Origin: a phage
Strand: one strand, 5' to 3'
Sequence record: NC_100372.1
DNA: 64,000 nucleotides
A model generated the notes under the pieces. It was not told the DNA's origin. It was given only the letters and a program-made list of their open reading frames with translations, and ran no database searches. The position numbers were made by a program, and so were the translations under genes. The first letter of the stretch is position 1. The number at the start of each line of letters is the position of its first letter. Shown here piece by piece: positions 33,937 to 36,507 of this stretch.

Positions 33937-34476
33937 CCTGAAGAGTCTGAATAAGTGTTTAAGTACCAGTCAGAGGAAAAGGTGAATGGTAGCCGAAGGG
34001 GGAGGGGGGTTTCTTATATCTTTAATTTGTATACTTTATATACACTTGTAAACCAATTCAATTAGGATCTGTTTACCACACAAAGTGGATGGAGACAAAT
34101 ATCACCTATTAAACTTGAATTATTTATAGAAAATACCACAACACCGCTTAAGTCTTTGATTTTACACACAAATCTTACAAATATCCTACCTCCATATTTA
34201 ACATACTTGTAACATATTCCATATCCTACCTGCCTGATCAATTTACTCCCACCACATTCCCACATTTTCCCTGTCTGTACTACCCCACCCCCGCCGGGAG
34301 TCCCGTCATATCTGGCTTTCCAGCAAATATCACACCCACAAATATCATCACCTGAAGAGGGTTTCATCCCATAATACCTGCCTTACCTGAAGAGCGCTTC
34401 ATACACCACCTAAATTTTTTAATTGACCCCTCCCCGCCGCCGGAGAGGTTGGCTTTTCCCACACAGGCCTGAAGAG
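33937..34476 (+). repeat. CCTGAAGAG 9-mer, 4 direct copies
   Basis: Copies at 33937-33945, 34351-34359, 34386-34394 and 34468-34476. Confidence 0.8.
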
Positions 34477-34706
34477 TCAGCCAGAAATATCTGAACAGGT
34501 CCAGTTATGCCCCGATTTTGTGCTTGTCCTACAGGAGTGCTGCCCTGTCAGGAGCCGGTAGCGACTGGAGTGCTGCCAGGCGGACGGAATGGGAATACTT
34601 CTCATTTTTATAATAATTCTCAAATATCGAGGCAGTGAGGCAAATTAATAGGCCAGGCCGTTCACACAGTGGCACAACATTTGCAATCTATCTTGTGGGA
34701 GTGAAT

Positions 34707-34740
34707 GAGAATACCTATCATTGTGAGAATGGTTATCATT
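34707..34740. promoter_or_regulatory. Two adjacent Fur-box-like sites (GAGAATNNNTATCATT)
   Basis: GAGAATACCTATCATT (34707-34722) and GAGAATGGTTATCATT (34725-34740). The second matches 13/19 of GATAATGATAATCATTATC. Confidence 0.4.
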
Positions 34741-35038
34741 ACGGGCAATTTAACATAATACCTATTATGCGCACCACTGGCGATACATACAGGGATTGAT
34801 AACATGGGTTACTGTTTACGCACATAACAATTATATTTATTACTATTTGTGTGGGATATAGTTAGCAACCAATAGATTAGATATTGACCTGCAGACTTCT
34901 GACCGTCCAGACGTCTAAACGCCCACACAACAAGGATTATACATACATTCCTGAATGTAAACAGGGCCGCAAAAAATGCTACCATACCAGTTTGTAAATT
35001 TTTCATGCAGCACTTGACAAAGAGGAGAAAAACTTGTC

Positions 35039-35100
35039 TGACACAATGTGACAAAATTGCCACTTTTGACACTTTTACCTTTGACACAATATGACACAAT
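35039..35100 (+). repeat. TGACACAAT iteron cluster (5 copies, 3 perfect)
   Basis: Perfect copies at 35039-35047, 35082-35090 and 35092-35100. Variants at 35049 (TGACAAAAT) and 35067 (TGACACTTT). Confidence 0.8.
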
Positions 35101-35193
35101 AACGGCTGTTACTATTCCATATCTCACTGTTTACGTATAGACTGTTTACGCCTGAATAGTTTACGCCCAAACTGTTTACACAGAGATGATAAG

Positions 35194-35432
35194 CCATGAC
35201 ATTCGTTTGCATGAAAACAATTAACAAGTTAATAATATATGACATAATATAAAAGCAGGGCAACTATTAGAAGATCTATAGTTGCCTTGCTTGTTATGTC
35301 ATGATTAACTAAATACAAGGCAACTATGATCTGAATAATAGATTGCAGAAAAACTATCACGGGGGTGATTGTTACTGCTTTTATATTATGTCGCGACTCC
35401 GTCGCGCCATGCCATTCGTTTGCATAGTTGCC
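35194..35432. repeat. Nested direct-repeat / inverted-repeat / palindrome structure
   Basis: 19-nt DR CCATGaCATTCGTTTGCAT (35194-35212 and 35407-35425, 1 mismatch). 18-bp perfect IR GACATAATATAAAAGCAG (35241-35258) / CTGCTTTTATATTATGTC (35375-35392). GGCAACTAT/ATAGTTGCC at 35259, 35278, 35319 and 35424. Confidence 0.85.
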
Positions 35433-36040
35433 TTATTGTTACAGGTAAAACAATTACATTATTAATTATTTCTTATCTTTCTCTTAGTCATCTAATGATT
35501 CCAGTCAGTATAGTAATGTACAGTAAACATTAGACGACTAAAGATTTCTCTGTGTATAATAACTTATCGTGACAATTTCGAACTGTTTACGAAAAATGTT
35601 GACACCTGAGCTGATTTATGTTATGCAGTTTACACGAATAATTATTTTATGCAGGTATTGACTATTCCGTTATTCTGTGGTTGGAATAAATACTTTGCAG
35701 ACTATAGAATGGCGTGCGTACGTGAATTCTGAGATCTGGCGGCTATAGTTATACTCGATTTTTCGCGTAGAACACGCTTTCGATGCTGTGTAAGTGTATG
35801 ACTTATAAAGATTTTTAGTTGTTGACAAGATATTGGAGATGTGCATCAGGTTAAAATTTGTGCAATAGCGGCATTACGTGCACTTTTGGGAGAGAAAACG
35901 GGTAAAAATGGCCCTGCTACCACACAATGAAAGATTATGCAATGGTTATTTTCCATGTATATTTGTACAGTATGTGGGATTGATGGCTAGTCAATTATTC
36001 CACTTGCCAGGTAGGGCCGTTTATGGTAGGAGAAGAGCAG

Positions 36041-36069
36041 ACAAAAAGAAAGGGGCCTTTAAGCCCCTT
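36041..36069 (-). terminator. Rho-independent terminator ending the - strand arm
   Basis: On the - strand: AAGGGGC-TTAAAG-GCCCCTT followed by TCTTTTTGT. Confidence 0.8.
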
Positions 36070-36087
36070 GATAATTCAGTTAAGAAA

Positions 36088-36507
36088 TTATAATGATTCG
36101 TATATTTCAAAAATCCGATTTGCCAGGTCGTTACGGTAGCGGAATTTTTCATCGCGCTTGATCATTAAATCCTTATAGCCGTACTCTTTAAGCACTTCAT
36201 TAACTTTATAGCGGCATACCTGCATATTATCTTGAGCGTCACCAATAAACTTGTTGCTGTGGTGCATTGCTTTAATTTCTTCTTCCAGGACCAGGGCAAC
36301 TACCCGGACCGGATCAAGCTGGTAGGCGGTAACATCTATGCGGCATTGTAGACGGCTTTTAACGTCTGCCACCGGATATACTGCAACCTCTTCCCCGTCA
36401 ACATTGACAATAATTAGTTTACCATCGATTTCGAATCCTTTCGCCGCCGGACCGTGACAAAAAGCGTTATCAAAGCTATATGCCGGATTATCAGATTTAA
36501 TGTTCAT
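36088..36507 (-). CDS. Hypothetical protein
   Basis: AGAGG SD. Own promoter at 36557-36585. Confidence 0.65.
   Translation of the reverse strand: MNIKSDNPAYSFDNAFCHGPAAKGFEIDGKLIIVNVDGEEVAVYPVADVKSRLQCRIDVTAYQLDPVRVVALVLEEEIKAMHHSNKFIGDAQDNMQVCRYKVNEVLKEYGYKDLMIKRDEKFRYRNDLANRIFEIYESL

What the first reader, a model, noticed from the sequence alone, without database searches (positions are those of the whole stretch)
35194..35432. Nested DR / IR / palindrome architecture (about 240 bp) resembling a recombination or replication cis-site
The outer layer is a 19-nt direct repeat, CCATG(A/C)CATTCGTTTGCAT (35194-35212 and 35407-35425). The middle layer is a perfect 18-bp inverted repeat, GACATAATATAAAAGCAG (35241-35258) with CTGCTTTTATATTATGTC (35375-35392). 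The inner layer is GGCAACTAT / ATAGTTGCC, forming a palindrome (35259-35267 with 35278-35286) plus further copies at 35319-35327 and 35424-35432. A small GC hairpin, GCGACTCCGTCGC, lies at about 35393-35405.

Such concentric symmetry can extrude as a large cruciform or ssDNA hairpin. It is typical of origins, resolution sites or packaging signals.
Basis: seen in the sequence. Interest (0 to 1): 0.58.

Follow-up and report, generated by a model that had tools for sequence, protein, structure and literature searches.

The report
Conserved hairpin DNA beside phage genome end
The nested repeats are real: they form a highly conserved, strongly self-pairing stretch of non-coding DNA about 200 bases inside the left physical end of an rV5-like coliphage genome, probably a signal for end processing, packaging or replication.

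Summary
The window comes from an rV5-like (Vequintavirus) coliphage. It contains a collapsed concatemer junction: the 460-bp direct terminal repeat maps to 34579-35038. The finding therefore starts 155 bp inside the left virion end, within a ~1.6-kb gene-free region.

The element is the strongest folding outlier in the 64 kb. It is single-copy in 117 of 119 relatives. Its core is 97.4% identical and 35406-35440 is invariant among 17 relatives, while the adjacent short-repeat arrays are only 68% identical. It is not coding, not in Rfam, not in host genomes and not multi-copy.

Other Vequintavirinae genera (KPP-1, SSE121, 4MG and others) carry a counterpart at the same place. Its 18-22-nt outer inverted repeat stays perfect through four changes made on both arms and one complete arm replacement.

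A transposon screen of Bas54 found no insertions in the ~2-kb intergenic region, which I infer is this one. Phage FV3 nevertheless lacks the element, through a precise loss between the direct repeats.

Best reading: a DNA element that acts by intrastrand pairing in end processing, packaging or replication. The exact role is unproven.

The parts
34579..35038 (.). Direct terminal repeat (460 bp), present once in the window, i.e. the concatemer-junction form. It gives the context that defines where the finding lies.
   Evidence: Gotham's annotated 459-bp repeat_region is identical at both record ends and maps here. ECP2309 and bov11CS3 start at 34579. ECP2303 and Pr121LW have a record end that coincides with the block. 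Published repeat lengths are 458-459 bp (PMC7471380, PMC6563267).
35039..35101 (+). Array of TGACAYAAT-type units that starts at the first base after the terminal repeat. The same motif recurs in the arms of the 18-nt inverted repeat.
   Evidence: Copy number and order differ between relatives. Mean identity across 35039-35192 is only 68%.
35127..35179 (+). Four CTGTTTAC(G)-type units at exact 15-bp spacing (iteron-like array).
   Evidence: 8 copies in the window against 2.2 expected, 6 of them within 34812-35590. Copy number varies; rV5 and JLBYU08 have many more.
35193..35212 (+). Left copy of the 20-nt direct repeat (DR-L), a conserved island between two hypervariable stretches.
   Evidence: It is absent in V18.
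35213..35240 (.). A+T-rich variable spacer. With the start of the core (35213-35252) it is about 85% A+T. In relatives it is the site of modular insertions of 15-63 nt.
   Evidence: Sequence. Insertions are visible. Mean identity over 35213-35236 is 73%.
35241..35258 (.). Left arm of the perfect 18-nt inverted repeat, the outer stem of the Y fold. It contains GACATAAT.
   Evidence: Invariant and 100% paired in 25 sequences.
35253..35292 (.). Central palindrome with 15-bp arms and a 10-nt loop (GGCAACTAT / ATAGTTGCC copies 1 and 2). It is the most plausible cruciform-extrusion site. Read on the minus strand it is followed by TTTTATATT and has been annotated as a terminator.
   Evidence: -13.8 kcal/mol, z = -6.4. 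Murica and Alma annotators call a minus-strand terminator here. The G35258-T35287 pairing is a wobble on the plus strand only.
35316..35327 (+). CAAGGCAACTAT, motif copy 3. It pairs either with 35278-35289 (Y fold) or with 35424-35435 (tandem-hairpin fold).
35353..35372 (.). Short inner hairpin, ACTATCAC-GGGG-GTGATTGT (arm 2 of the Y fold).
   Evidence: The pair 35355/35370 is T-T in 5 sequences, T-G in 19 and C-G in 1 (EI-SP-GF).
35375..35392 (.). Right arm of the perfect 18-nt inverted repeat.
35393..35405 (.). GC hairpin GCGAC-TCC-GTCGC.
   Evidence: Invariant in 25 sequences.
35406..35441 (+). Right copy of the 20-nt direct repeat (DR-R, 35406-35425) overlapping GGCAACTAT copy 4 (35424-35432, minus strand), plus the conserved tail.
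   Evidence: Columns 35406-35440 are 35 of 35 invariant in 17 relatives. In the 25-sequence alignment three phages (MG53, YP-6, HMD-6) have A instead of C at 35412.

Best explanation
The feature is a cis-acting, non-coding DNA element of the genome-end (concatemer-junction) region of rV5-like phages.

Shown:
- It lies 155 bp to the right of the 460-bp direct terminal repeat, about 0.6-0.85 kb from the left virion end.
- It is single-copy and almost universally present in the genus.
- It is more conserved than its surroundings and is exceptionally self-complementary.
- A counterpart at the same position in sister genera keeps its arms complementary while their sequence changes.

Inferred:
- It works through intrastrand base pairing of DNA. 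When the region is single-stranded (replication, or strand-displacement synthesis at the junction) it folds into a Y-shaped hairpin: an 18-bp outer stem, a long arm built from the GGCAACTAT motifs and a short arm.
- In supercoiled duplex DNA only the central 15-bp palindrome could extrude.
- The most likely role is in processing the concatemer junction. That means duplicating the terminal repeat and/or positioning terminase for the cut at 35038/35039, by analogy with the hairpin intermediate reported for T7.
- The repeat arrays to its left and the two invariant 20-nt boxes would be the protein-recognition parts.
- The 20-nt direct repeats are not target-site duplications. As a by-product they allow precise loss of the hairpin-forming unit, as seen in FV3.
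For: Position:
- The terminal repeat maps to 34579-35038. Published repeat lengths are 458-459 bp.
- The element is single-copy in 117 of 119 Vequintavirus records.

Structure:
- z = -12 for 35237-35396. It is the top outlier among 3,192 windows and holds the only long spaced inverted repeats in 64 kb.
- All candidate helices are 98-100% paired in 25 sequences.
- Variable sites are depleted in paired positions of the Y fold, p = 0.0097. The common polymorphisms fall in a bulge, in loops, or improve a pair.

Conservation:
- Core 97.4% identical, 35406-35440 invariant among 17 relatives. The terminal repeat is 94%, the downstream non-coding DNA 90-92%, the adjacent arrays 68%.

Not coding, not RNA family, not mobile:
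- 1-nt indels occur in 5 of 24 aligned relatives.
- No Rfam match.
- No host copies and no true plasmid copies.

Sister genera:
- KPP-1's published terminal repeat is followed about 310 bp later by a perfect 21-nt inverted repeat with nested inner repeats, z = -11.5.
- Across KPP-1, SSE121, 4MG, EspYZU15, KNP2, Ro1 and others, four arm positions change on both arms together. One contig (L086) has entirely different arms that are still perfect over 22 nt. There are no G-T intermediates.
- The right end of the terminal repeat shares a motif between the genera, TTTGTAAAT..CTTGACA..GAG..TTGT.

Experiment:
- No transposon insertions were recovered in the ~2-kb intergenic region of Bas54 in a highly saturated library. 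The equivalent window stretch has 151 TA sites, 27 of them in the element.

Precedent:
- Terminal-repeat duplication in T7 involves a hairpin intermediate (PMC4281155).
Against: - FV3 lacks the whole 213-bp unit, keeping a single copy of the direct repeat, and is nested among element-bearing phages. If that record is correct, the core is dispensable for plaque formation. V18 lacks DR-L and the GTTTAC array.
- Within Vequintavirus the arms are invariant, so there is no covariation in the window's own family apart from one T-T / T-G / C-G series and one T-A to C-G change in an apical stem. Single uncompensated changes occur at 35279 (V18, EI-SP-GF) and 35295 (Gotham, L025, JLBYU08).
- Sequence homology to the sister-genus element is only suggestive, so transferring its covariation evidence rests on position and architecture.
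- Perfect inverted repeats can be maintained without function, by template-switch correction.
- The transposon-free zone covers ~2 kb and does not single out the element. It could also be technical: the preprint does not say whether the marker has its own promoter.
- That bas54_0134/0135 flank this same region is inferred, from gene order and from it being the only ~2-kb gene-free stretch. I did not check it on the Bas54 record.
- No data on DNA ends, nicks or intermediates were available.
Confidence: 0.4

Rival explanations
1. Replication origin, or part of one. The CTGTTTACG units at 15-bp spacing act as iterons for an initiator. The 85% A+T stretch 35213-35252 is the unwinding element. The palindromes lie next to it, as in the lambda origin (iterons, A+T-rich region, palindrome; my own recollection of that origin). 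Alternatively the hairpins act as single-strand priming signals.
For: - Array of four units at exact 15-bp spacing, 8 copies in the window against 2.2 expected, clustered here.
- Copy number and sequence of the arrays vary between phages, as iterons do.
- An A+T-rich spacer lies next to the array.
- Two of the three GATC sites of the 1.8-kb region lie in the element.
- The region tolerates no insertions in Bas54.
- No origin has been identified for rV5.
- FV3 keeps the arrays, one DR box and the second A+T-rich copy (35447-35469), so an origin could survive that deletion.
Against: - No enrichment of good DnaA boxes and no IHF core site.
- The GC-skew turn here is explained by convergent gene orientation.
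- V18 lacks the GTTTAC array and DR-L.
- The sister genera have only a single GTTTAC copy rather than an array.
- No initiator has been linked to the site.
- The position hugging the terminal repeat is explained more directly by end processing.
Confidence: 0.22
2. An RNA-level or transcriptional element. One option is a structured non-coding RNA. The other is a bidirectional terminator or insulator (possibly an RNase III target) that stops convergent transcription from the two genome arms crossing the concatemer junction.
For: - The two arms are transcribed towards this region. Kropinski et al. expected but did not find bidirectional terminators between genes 163 and 164.
- Read on the minus strand, hairpin 35253-35292 is followed by TTTTATATT, and two groups annotated it as a terminator.
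- RNA folds are very stable, z = -7.4 to -8.5.
- The two wobble positions (35258/35287 and 35355/35370) are G-T on the plus strand and would be A-C on the minus strand. That fits a folded plus-strand transcript or plus-strand ssDNA.
Against: - No Rfam family matches.
- No conserved promoter faces the element. The candidate -35 at 35221 is variable and is separated from the -10 by insertions in half of the relatives.
- The plus strand has no T-tract terminator after the structure.
- A strong minus-strand terminator at 36050-36069 already ends the left-arm operon.
- Terminators are normally not the most sequence-conserved part of a region.
- The outer arms in all variants are perfectly Watson-Crick with no G-U intermediates. 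That points to a constraint on both strands.
Confidence: 0.18
3. No dedicated function: a palindromic insertion or selfish mini-element. It would be a module that once inserted with duplication of a ~20-45-nt target, and is now kept perfect by template-switch (quasipalindrome) correction and spread by recombination between co-infecting phages.
For: - FV3 looks like an empty site with a single DR copy.
- The duplicated segment may extend beyond the DR: AAAACAATTA...TTAAT.AT follows both copies (family D3).
- The region is a hotspot for small hairpin inserts. A ~33-nt insert sits at two different sites, and a 48-63-nt module is present in half of the relatives.
- The near-identity of the core could reflect recent spread rather than selection.
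Against: - Single copy per genome. None in 5,426 E. coli genomes, none in plasmids other than a mislabelled phage.
- The inverted-repeat arms are not at the ends of the unit: 28 nt and 13 nt separate them from the direct repeats. A 20-nt target duplication is atypical.
- FV3 is nested, not basal. rV5 and the most divergent contigs carry the element, so loss in FV3 is more parsimonious.
- A counterpart occupies the same position in other genera.
- DR-L is a conserved island between hypervariable flanks.
- The region is insertion-free in Bas54.
Confidence: 0.12
4. A cluster of duplex-DNA binding sites for a phage or host protein. The sites would be four GGCAACTAT sites, two 20-nt boxes and the GACATAAT arms, acting by looping or a nucleoprotein complex (for example a terminase small subunit or a repressor). 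Hairpin formation would play no role.
For: - Sequence itself is invariant, not only pairing.
- Motifs occur in both orientations, and all four GGCAACTAT copies of the 64 kb are here.
- The DR boxes are conserved where they pair with nothing.
- Related TGACAYAAT units form an array next to the cut site.
Against: - In the sister genera the arm positions that vary always change on both arms, and one phage has totally different arms that are still perfect. Sites that merely bind a protein would drift independently at non-contacted positions.
- Spacing between the motifs is not conserved on the DR-L side.
- This reading is compatible with the best explanation rather than exclusive of it.
Confidence: 0.08

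Closest known systems
T7-type concatemer-junction processing: short exact terminal repeats, duplication of the repeat, hairpin intermediate (Chung & Hinkle 1990 as cited in PMC4281155; details beyond that citation are from my memory)
   Same: - The phage has short, exact, non-permuted direct terminal repeats. PhageTerm classed KPP-1's packaging as T7-like.
- The repeat is present once per junction and must be duplicated.
- An inverted repeat able to form a hairpin lies just outside the repeat.
- Arrays of short direct repeats flank the terminal repeat on both sides. I recall the same for T7.
   Different: - No sequence similarity. The host phage is a large myovirus with a 137-kb genome.
- The element is on the left-end side of the junction, and it is a ~150-nt branched structure rather than a simple hairpin.
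- No intermediate has been observed here.
- One relative, FV3, lacks it.
Iteron-type origins such as lambda ori (iterons, then an A+T-rich region, then a palindrome); from my own knowledge
   Same: The order of parts matches: an array of short direct repeats at fixed spacing, an A+T-rich stretch, then palindromes. The arrays vary between relatives.
   Different: - The units are 8-9 nt at 15-bp spacing, without internal dyad symmetry.
- The element does not lie inside an initiator gene.
- No DnaA or IHF signal.
- Sister genera lack the array.
- Initiation has not been mapped.
Counterpart element in Mydovirus and Seunavirus phages (KPP-1, KNP2, BIS47, Ro1, SSE121, 4MG, EspYZU15). As far as my searches show it is undescribed in the literature.
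   Same: - Same position, about 200-310 bp inside the right boundary of the terminal repeat.
- Perfect 18-22-nt outer inverted repeat with a 116-204-nt spacer that contains nested hairpins. Arms begin GACAYAATA / GACACWATAAC. There is a stem containing GATC.
- Comparable z-scores.
- The ends of the terminal repeats resemble each other.
   Different: - Overall sequence is not alignable with significance. The best local hit falls at the equivalent place in 2 of 4 phages, and only one beats all shuffles.
- The inner hairpins differ.
- The direct repeat brackets only the right arm.
- No GGCAACTAT motif.
Injection-stop / non-coding repeat region of phage T5 terminal repeats (from memory)
   Same: A gene-free stretch near a genome end that is dense in direct repeats, inverted repeats and palindromes.
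   Different: The T5 region lies inside a ~10-kb terminal repeat, several kb from the end, and is tied to two-step DNA transfer. Nothing suggests two-step injection here.

Membership tests
T7-type concatemer-junction hairpin / end-processing site | The phage packages unit-length DNA with short, exact, non-permuted direct terminal repeats | tested here: met
   A 459-460-bp repeat is annotated at both ends of Gotham and is identical there. At least 5 records end at the same boundaries. Literature.
T7-type concatemer-junction hairpin / end-processing site | An inverted repeat able to form a hairpin lies immediately outside the terminal repeat at the junction | tested here: met
   The element starts 155 bp, and the outer stem 203 bp, from the boundary at 35038. 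The distance is about 310 bp in KPP-1.
T7-type concatemer-junction hairpin / end-processing site | Hairpin-ended or nicked intermediates form at the repeat during infection | not testable with these tools
   This needs read-end or Southern analysis of replicating DNA.
T7-type concatemer-junction hairpin / end-processing site | The element is required in cis for maturation or packaging | tested here: inconclusive
   No transposon insertions in the ~2-kb region of Bas54. FV3 lacks the element.
Iteron-type replication origin | Array of repeated initiator-binding units at regular spacing | tested here: met
Four CTGTTTAC(G) units at 15-bp spacing, and the motif is over-represented.
Iteron-type replication origin | Adjacent A+T-rich unwinding region | tested here: met
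   35213-35252 is about 85% A+T, counted by eye from the sequence.
Iteron-type replication origin | Host-factor sites (DnaA boxes, IHF) and/or a linked initiator gene | tested here: not met
   One perfect and five 1-mismatch DnaA-like matches in 1.8 kb, against 2.8 expected. No IHF core site. Flanking small proteins have no Pfam domain.
Iteron-type replication origin | Replication initiates here | not testable with these tools
   This needs marker-frequency or 2D-gel data.
Transposable mini-element (MITE / IS-derived) | Terminal inverted repeats at the very ends, directly flanked by a short target-site duplication | tested here: not met
   28 nt and 13 nt separate the 20-nt direct repeats from the inverted-repeat arms. 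A 20-nt duplication is atypical.
Transposable mini-element (MITE / IS-derived) | Several copies per genome and/or copies in other replicons | tested here: not met
   One copy per phage genome. None in E. coli genomes. The only plasmid hit is a 137-kb vequintavirus.
Invertible segment / site-specific recombination site | The segment between the inverted repeats is found in both orientations, or is rearranged, among relatives | tested here: not met
   All 24 aligned relatives are collinear with the window.
Known structured RNA family (Rfam 15) | Match to a covariance model | tested here: not met
   No hit at E <= 1 in 34000-36500. Only one sub-threshold chance hit in the sister-genus loci.
Intrinsic (rho-independent) terminator | G+C-rich stem with a short loop, followed by a T tract | tested here: inconclusive
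   The minus-strand reading of 35292-35253 has a 15-bp stem then TTTTATATT, and was annotated as a terminator in Murica and Alma. The consensus scan did not call it because the loop is 10 nt. The plus strand has no T tract.
Protein-coding gene | Open reading frame preserved among relatives | tested here: not met
   The small ORFs here (e.g. 35229-35360 minus strand, 43 aa) are broken by 1-nt indels in Murica, IMG25, V18, LL12 and YP-6, and by a 33-nt insert in rV5, LL12 and A135.

The most novel reading that the evidence does not exclude
The Y-shaped hairpin just inside the terminal repeat is the site where Vequintavirinae (Vequintavirus, Mydovirus, Seunavirus, perhaps also Phapecoctavirus) duplicate their terminal repeat or prime end replication. 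It would be a shared, previously undescribed class of structured DNA end-processing element. It would also explain why the ~2-kb intergenic region of Bas54 accepts no transposon insertions. The two mutually exclusive folds could act as a switch between a replication conformer and a packaging conformer.
Probability: 0.25. Interest if true: 0.7.

Novelty: new variant of a known kind. Interest (0 to 1): 0.55.

Why it matters
rV5-like phages are widely used as therapeutic and biocontrol candidates, yet their origin, packaging signal and end-replication mechanism are unknown. The 2013 genome paper labels this region only as "non-coding". A 2025 transposon screen noted that its ~2 kb accepts no insertions and must have "an important functional role".

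This analysis does three things:
- It places the physical ends on the sequence.
- It dissects the region into the terminal repeat, two repeat arrays, two invariant 20-nt boxes and a branched hairpin element.
- It shows that a counterpart of the hairpin is kept complementary across genera.

That turns an unexplained essential region into specific deletion and arm-swap experiments. It also tells genome engineers which ~250 bp to leave intact.

Tried and rejected
- **Mobile mini-element:** rejected. It is single-copy, absent from hosts and plasmids, and its inverted repeats are not terminal.
- **Coding ORF:** rejected because of frameshifting indels.
- **Known RNA family:** none found.
- **Conserved sigma-70 promoter facing the element:** none convincing.
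- **DnaA and IHF sites:** not enriched.
- **More divergent Vequintavirus-type copies:**
  - The viral-contig scan with the central palindrome gave 27 loci, of which only 2 were true homologues.
  - The metagenome scan with the DR gave 19 loci, only 3 of them true and one a duplicate.
  - So covariation within the window's own family could not be tested properly.
- **Using the flanking 87-aa gene to find equivalent loci in KPP-1:** no homology.
- **blastn of the terminal repeat:** found only the same genus.
- **Homology between the window's element and the KPP-1-type element:** suggestive only.
- **Covariance model of the sister-genus element:** not built, because I expected calibration of a model of about 230 positions to exceed the time limit.
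- **My first tally of arm 2:** mis-registered and redone.
- **Literature:** no paper in the library describes the element.
Full report
**1. The observation**

Reading 34700-36000 and running the repeat finder confirm each feature.
- The direct repeat is 20 nt: GCCATG(A/C)CATTCGTTTGCAT at 35193-35212 and 35406-35425, 19 of 20 identical.
- The 18-nt inverted repeat, 35241-35258 with 35375-35392, is perfect.
- GGCAACTAT occurs at 35259 and 35319 on the plus strand and at 35278 and 35424 on the minus strand.
- The GC hairpin lies at 35393-35405.

None of this is chance.
- The four GGCAACTAT copies are the only ones in 64 kb, against 0.53 expected.
- The 20-mer has no third copy even allowing three mismatches.
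- Apart from four short overlapping palindromes, the only inverted repeats of 15 nt or more within 400 bp in the whole window are the two in this element.
- 35190-35445 folds with z = -7.4 to -8.5 on either strand, as DNA or RNA. 35237-35396 folds with z = -12.0.
- In a scan of 3,192 overlapping 160-nt windows this is the top outlier: GC-corrected z = -6.05, next -3.78.

The motifs permit two mutually exclusive conformers.
- The first is a Y-shaped fold. It has the 18-bp outer stem, a long arm pairing 35260-35289 with 35316-35346, and a short arm at 35353-35372.
- The second is two tandem hairpins, 35227-35310 and 35317-35436.

**2. Where it lies**

The window is from an rV5-like coliphage. 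119 phage records match, nearly all classified as or resembling Vequintavirus. Most annotators leave about 1.6-1.7 kb here without genes. The rV5 genome paper marks it "non-coding" and found no origin.

The key fact is the position of the physical ends.
- Vequintaviruses have 458-459-bp direct terminal repeats (PMC7471380, PMC6563267).
- Gotham's annotated repeat is identical at both record ends and maps to window 34579-35038.
- ECP2309, bov11CS3, ECP2303 and Pr121LW start or end at the same boundaries.

The window therefore holds the concatemer-junction form. The order is: right-arm genes on the plus strand, the terminal repeat once, then the left end. The finding begins 155 bp after the right boundary of the repeat.

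Between the boundary and the finding lie two arrays.
- TGACAYAAT-type units start at the very first base after the repeat (35039-35101).
- Four CTGTTTAC(G) units sit at exact 15-bp spacing (35127-35179). The motif occurs 8 times in the window against 2.2 expected.

Then come DR-L and an ~85% A+T stretch, followed by the core. Left-arm genes are on the minus strand and end at a strong terminator at 36050-36069. The two genome arms are thus transcribed towards this region.

**3. Relatives**

- **Presence.** The core (35237-35405) is present once in 117 of 119 records. It is absent from 5,426 E. coli genomes. Its only plasmid hit is a 137.6-kb vequintavirus genome.
- **Conservation among 17 relatives, excluding FV3.**

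| Segment | Mean pairwise identity |
|---|---|
| Core 35237-35405 | 97.4% |
| 35406-35440 | 100% (35 of 35 columns invariant) |
| Terminal repeat | 94% |
| Downstream non-coding DNA | 90-92% |
| Repeat arrays 35039-35192 | 68% |
| A+T spacer 35213-35236 | 73% |

- **DR-L.** It is a conserved island between two hypervariable stretches.
- **Pairing in the 25-sequence alignment.**
  - Every helix of both conformers is 98-100% paired, but the arms are invariant, so there is almost no covariation to score.
  - The exceptions are the pair 35355/35370 (T-T in 5 sequences, T-G in 19, C-G in 1) and an apical T-A to C-G change in one contig.
- **Where variation falls.**
  - Variable sites avoid paired positions of the Y fold: 8 of 118 against 8 of 34, p = 0.0097. 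The tandem-hairpin fold gives p = 0.23.
  - Single uncompensated changes occur at 35279 and 35295.
- **Not coding.** One-nucleotide indels in five relatives and a 33-nt insert in three rule out a coding function.
- **No RNA family.** Rfam has no match.

**4. Natural variants**

- **FV3.**
  - It carries one DR copy and lacks the 213 bp in between.
  - In a tree of the flanking sequence FV3 is nested next to Gotham and ECP2309, while rV5 and the most divergent contigs carry the element.
  - The simplest reading is therefore a secondary, precise loss between the direct repeats. That is the classic outcome for direct repeats bracketing a hairpin-forming segment.
  - It could also be a cloning or assembly artefact of an early genome project.
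- **V18.** It keeps the core but lacks DR-L and the GTTTAC array.
- **Conclusion.** The direct repeats are not transposon target duplications. The inverted-repeat arms lie 28 nt and 13 nt away from them, and the element is single-copy.

**5. Other genera**

KPP-1 (Mydovirus) has a published 514-bp terminal repeat.
- About 310 bp inside it lies a perfect 21-nt inverted repeat with a 164-nt spacer and nested inner repeats. It folds with z = -11.5.
- That region is alignable at 71-77% identity with Seunavirus phages.

Across KPP-1, SSE121, 4MG and EspYZU15, plus IMG/VR contigs whose lengths match the KNP2, BIS47, Ro1 and 4MG records:
- The outer arms are perfect in every phage (18-22 nt).
- Four positions differ between phages and always change on both arms.
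- One contig (L086) has completely different arms at the same place, still 22 of 22 complementary.
- No G-T intermediates occur.

This pattern is what selection for base pairing on both strands would give. Template-switch correction would give the same pattern. It is not what independent protein-binding sites would give.

The right ends of the terminal repeats share a motif, TTTGTAAAT..CTTGACA..GAG..TTGT. Both kinds of arm begin with GACAYAATA-like sequence.

Sequence homology of the elements themselves is only suggestive. The best local hit of the window's right half falls at the equivalent place in KPP-1 and 4MG, but only 4MG beats all shuffles. I therefore treat them as positional and architectural counterparts.

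Phapecoctavirus phages share the adjacent 139-aa gene at about 89% amino-acid identity. They also have a branched inverted-repeat element in their gene-free stretch, z = -8.9.

**6. Experimental hint**

[quoted passage not shown] The authors suggest an important function.

I infer that this is the same region.
- It is the only gene-free stretch of that size in these genomes.
- The gene index fits: bas56_0129 flanks it in AlexBoehm.
- All 12 records with host "Escherichia coli K-12", which I take to be the BASEL phages, carry the core.
- The window equivalent has 151 TA sites, 27 of them in the element.

Caveats:
- The result covers the whole region, including the terminal repeat.
- The preprint does not say whether the selectable marker has its own promoter. 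A silent region could therefore appear essential for technical reasons.

**7. Mechanism**

Shown:
- The position next to the terminal repeat.
- The strong and conserved self-complementarity.
- The non-coding, single-copy nature.
- The counterpart with compensated arms.

Inferred:
- The element acts as DNA through intrastrand pairing.
- A full cruciform closed by arms 116 nt apart is energetically unlikely in duplex DNA. The branched structure should form when the region is single-stranded. Only the central 15-bp palindrome (10-nt loop, -13.8 kcal/mol) is a plausible extrusion site.
- Phages of this type carry one repeat copy per junction and must duplicate it. T7 is reported to do so through a hairpin intermediate. 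I therefore favour a role in junction processing or packaging initiation (confidence 0.4).

Rivals:
- An iteron-type origin (0.22). The array, A+T-rich stretch and palindrome order fits, but DnaA and IHF signals are lacking and sister genera have no array.
- An RNA or terminator role (0.18). The minus-strand hairpin plus T tract has been annotated as a terminator. However, there is no conserved promoter, no Rfam family, and the arms are perfectly Watson-Crick.
- A functionless palindromic insert kept perfect by template switching (0.12).
- A pure duplex protein-site cluster (0.08), which is compatible with the favoured model.

**8. Comparison, novelty and verdict**

The element works most like the hairpin-forming inverted repeat at the T7 concatemer junction, and it is arranged somewhat like an iteron origin.
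- **T7-type site:** two defining features were tested and met (type of terminal repeat, adjacency of the inverted repeat). The decisive ones (intermediates, cis requirement) are untestable here or inconclusive.
- **Other families:** it fails the tests for a transposable mini-element, an invertible segment, a known RNA family and a gene.
- **Prior description:** I found no description of it in the literature searched.

I rate it a new variant of a known kind (structured cis-DNA at phage genome ends), with interest 0.55. It gives a concrete candidate for an experimentally flagged but unexplained region. Its function remains inferred, and one natural isolate appears to live without it.

Noticed in passing
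window 34579-35038: The window contains the phage's 460-bp direct terminal repeat as a single collapsed copy (concatemer-junction form). The left virion end is at 34579 and the right virion end at 35038.
   Followed up: yes
window 35039-35101: An array of TGACAYAAT-type units begins at the first base after the terminal repeat. Copy number and order differ between relatives. The same motif forms the outer part of the 18-nt inverted-repeat arms, and GACACWATAAC forms the arms in Mydovirus and Seunavirus.
   Followed up: partly
window 35127-35179 (also 34812, 34957 minus strand, 35583): CTGTTTAC(G) units at exact 15-bp spacing: 8 in the window against 2.2 expected. The array is expanded in rV5 and JLBYU08 and missing in V18. 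It looks like an iteron array.
   Followed up: partly
window 34608-34622, 34706-34720, 34724-34738 (inside the terminal repeat): Palindromes close to the Fur-box 7-1-7 consensus TGATAATnATTATCA, such as TGAGAATGGTTATCA. There are 8 strand-hits in 1.8 kb against 1.35 expected. Similar palindromes recur in the gene-free end regions of Phapecoctavirus (L046 58-75, 237-254) and of KPP-1 and Seunavirus (e.g. TGATAAGGATTATCA).
   Followed up: partly
window 33937-34476 (and 9500, 10367, 17001, 19436; 61362 on the minus strand): CCTGAAGAG occurs 9 times against 0.6 expected. Four copies cluster just left of the terminal repeat, so short-repeat arrays flank the repeat on both sides.
   Followed up: no
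L010 (rV5) about 973-1028, L068 (LL12), L069 (A135); L070 (YP-6) about 252-307. Window equivalents: 35293 and 35213.: A hairpin-rich mini-insert of about 33 nt (TTAACAYCCTYGAGACGARGGC..GAGTT) sits at two different sites. It lies inside the core in rV5, LL12 and A135, and directly after DR-L in YP-6. Each copy is flanked by a short duplication (TTA or TAAC). It may be a tiny mobile or templated insertion.
   Followed up: partly
between window 35236 and 35237, in AlexBoehm, Murica, APECc02, rV5, bov11, MG52, LL12, A135 and HMD-6 (part of it also in V18): A 48-63-nt module of three small hairpins (CTGGCTATGCCAG, GGTGACCTTTGGTCACC, CACCCCTTCGGGTG followed by TTTC) is inserted between DR-L and the core in about half of the relatives. 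The last hairpin looks like a plus-strand terminator.
   Followed up: no
window 34300-36100: GATC is depleted: 3 sites where about 10 are expected from the window-wide density. Two of the three (35273, 35328) lie in the element and pair with each other in the Y fold. The sister-genus element has a conserved CGATCA...TGATCG stem.
   Followed up: no
window 36088-36507 (minus strand); L046 1245-1664; L047 956-1375: The first left-arm gene (139 aa, no Pfam domain) has homologues of about 89% amino-acid identity in Phapecoctavirus, a different subfamily. There it again lies next to a gene-free stretch with a branched inverted-repeat element (L046 516-661).
   Followed up: partly
database records: Eighteen 'Campylobacter phage' records match this Vequintavirus region; the two I opened (MG065690, A135) and listed earlier (MG065654, C15) are classified as Vequintavirus, and A135 is flagged UNVERIFIED. 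One 137.6-kb E. coli 'plasmid' (CP057073.1, cattle faeces) also matches. These are probably mislabelled hosts or a carried phage genome.
   Followed up: no
window 36050-36069 (minus strand): A strong intrinsic terminator (AAGGGGCTTAAAGGCCCCTT followed by TCTTTTT) ends the left-arm operon about 600 bp before the element. The element therefore probably lies in a transcriptionally quiet zone.
   Followed up: partly
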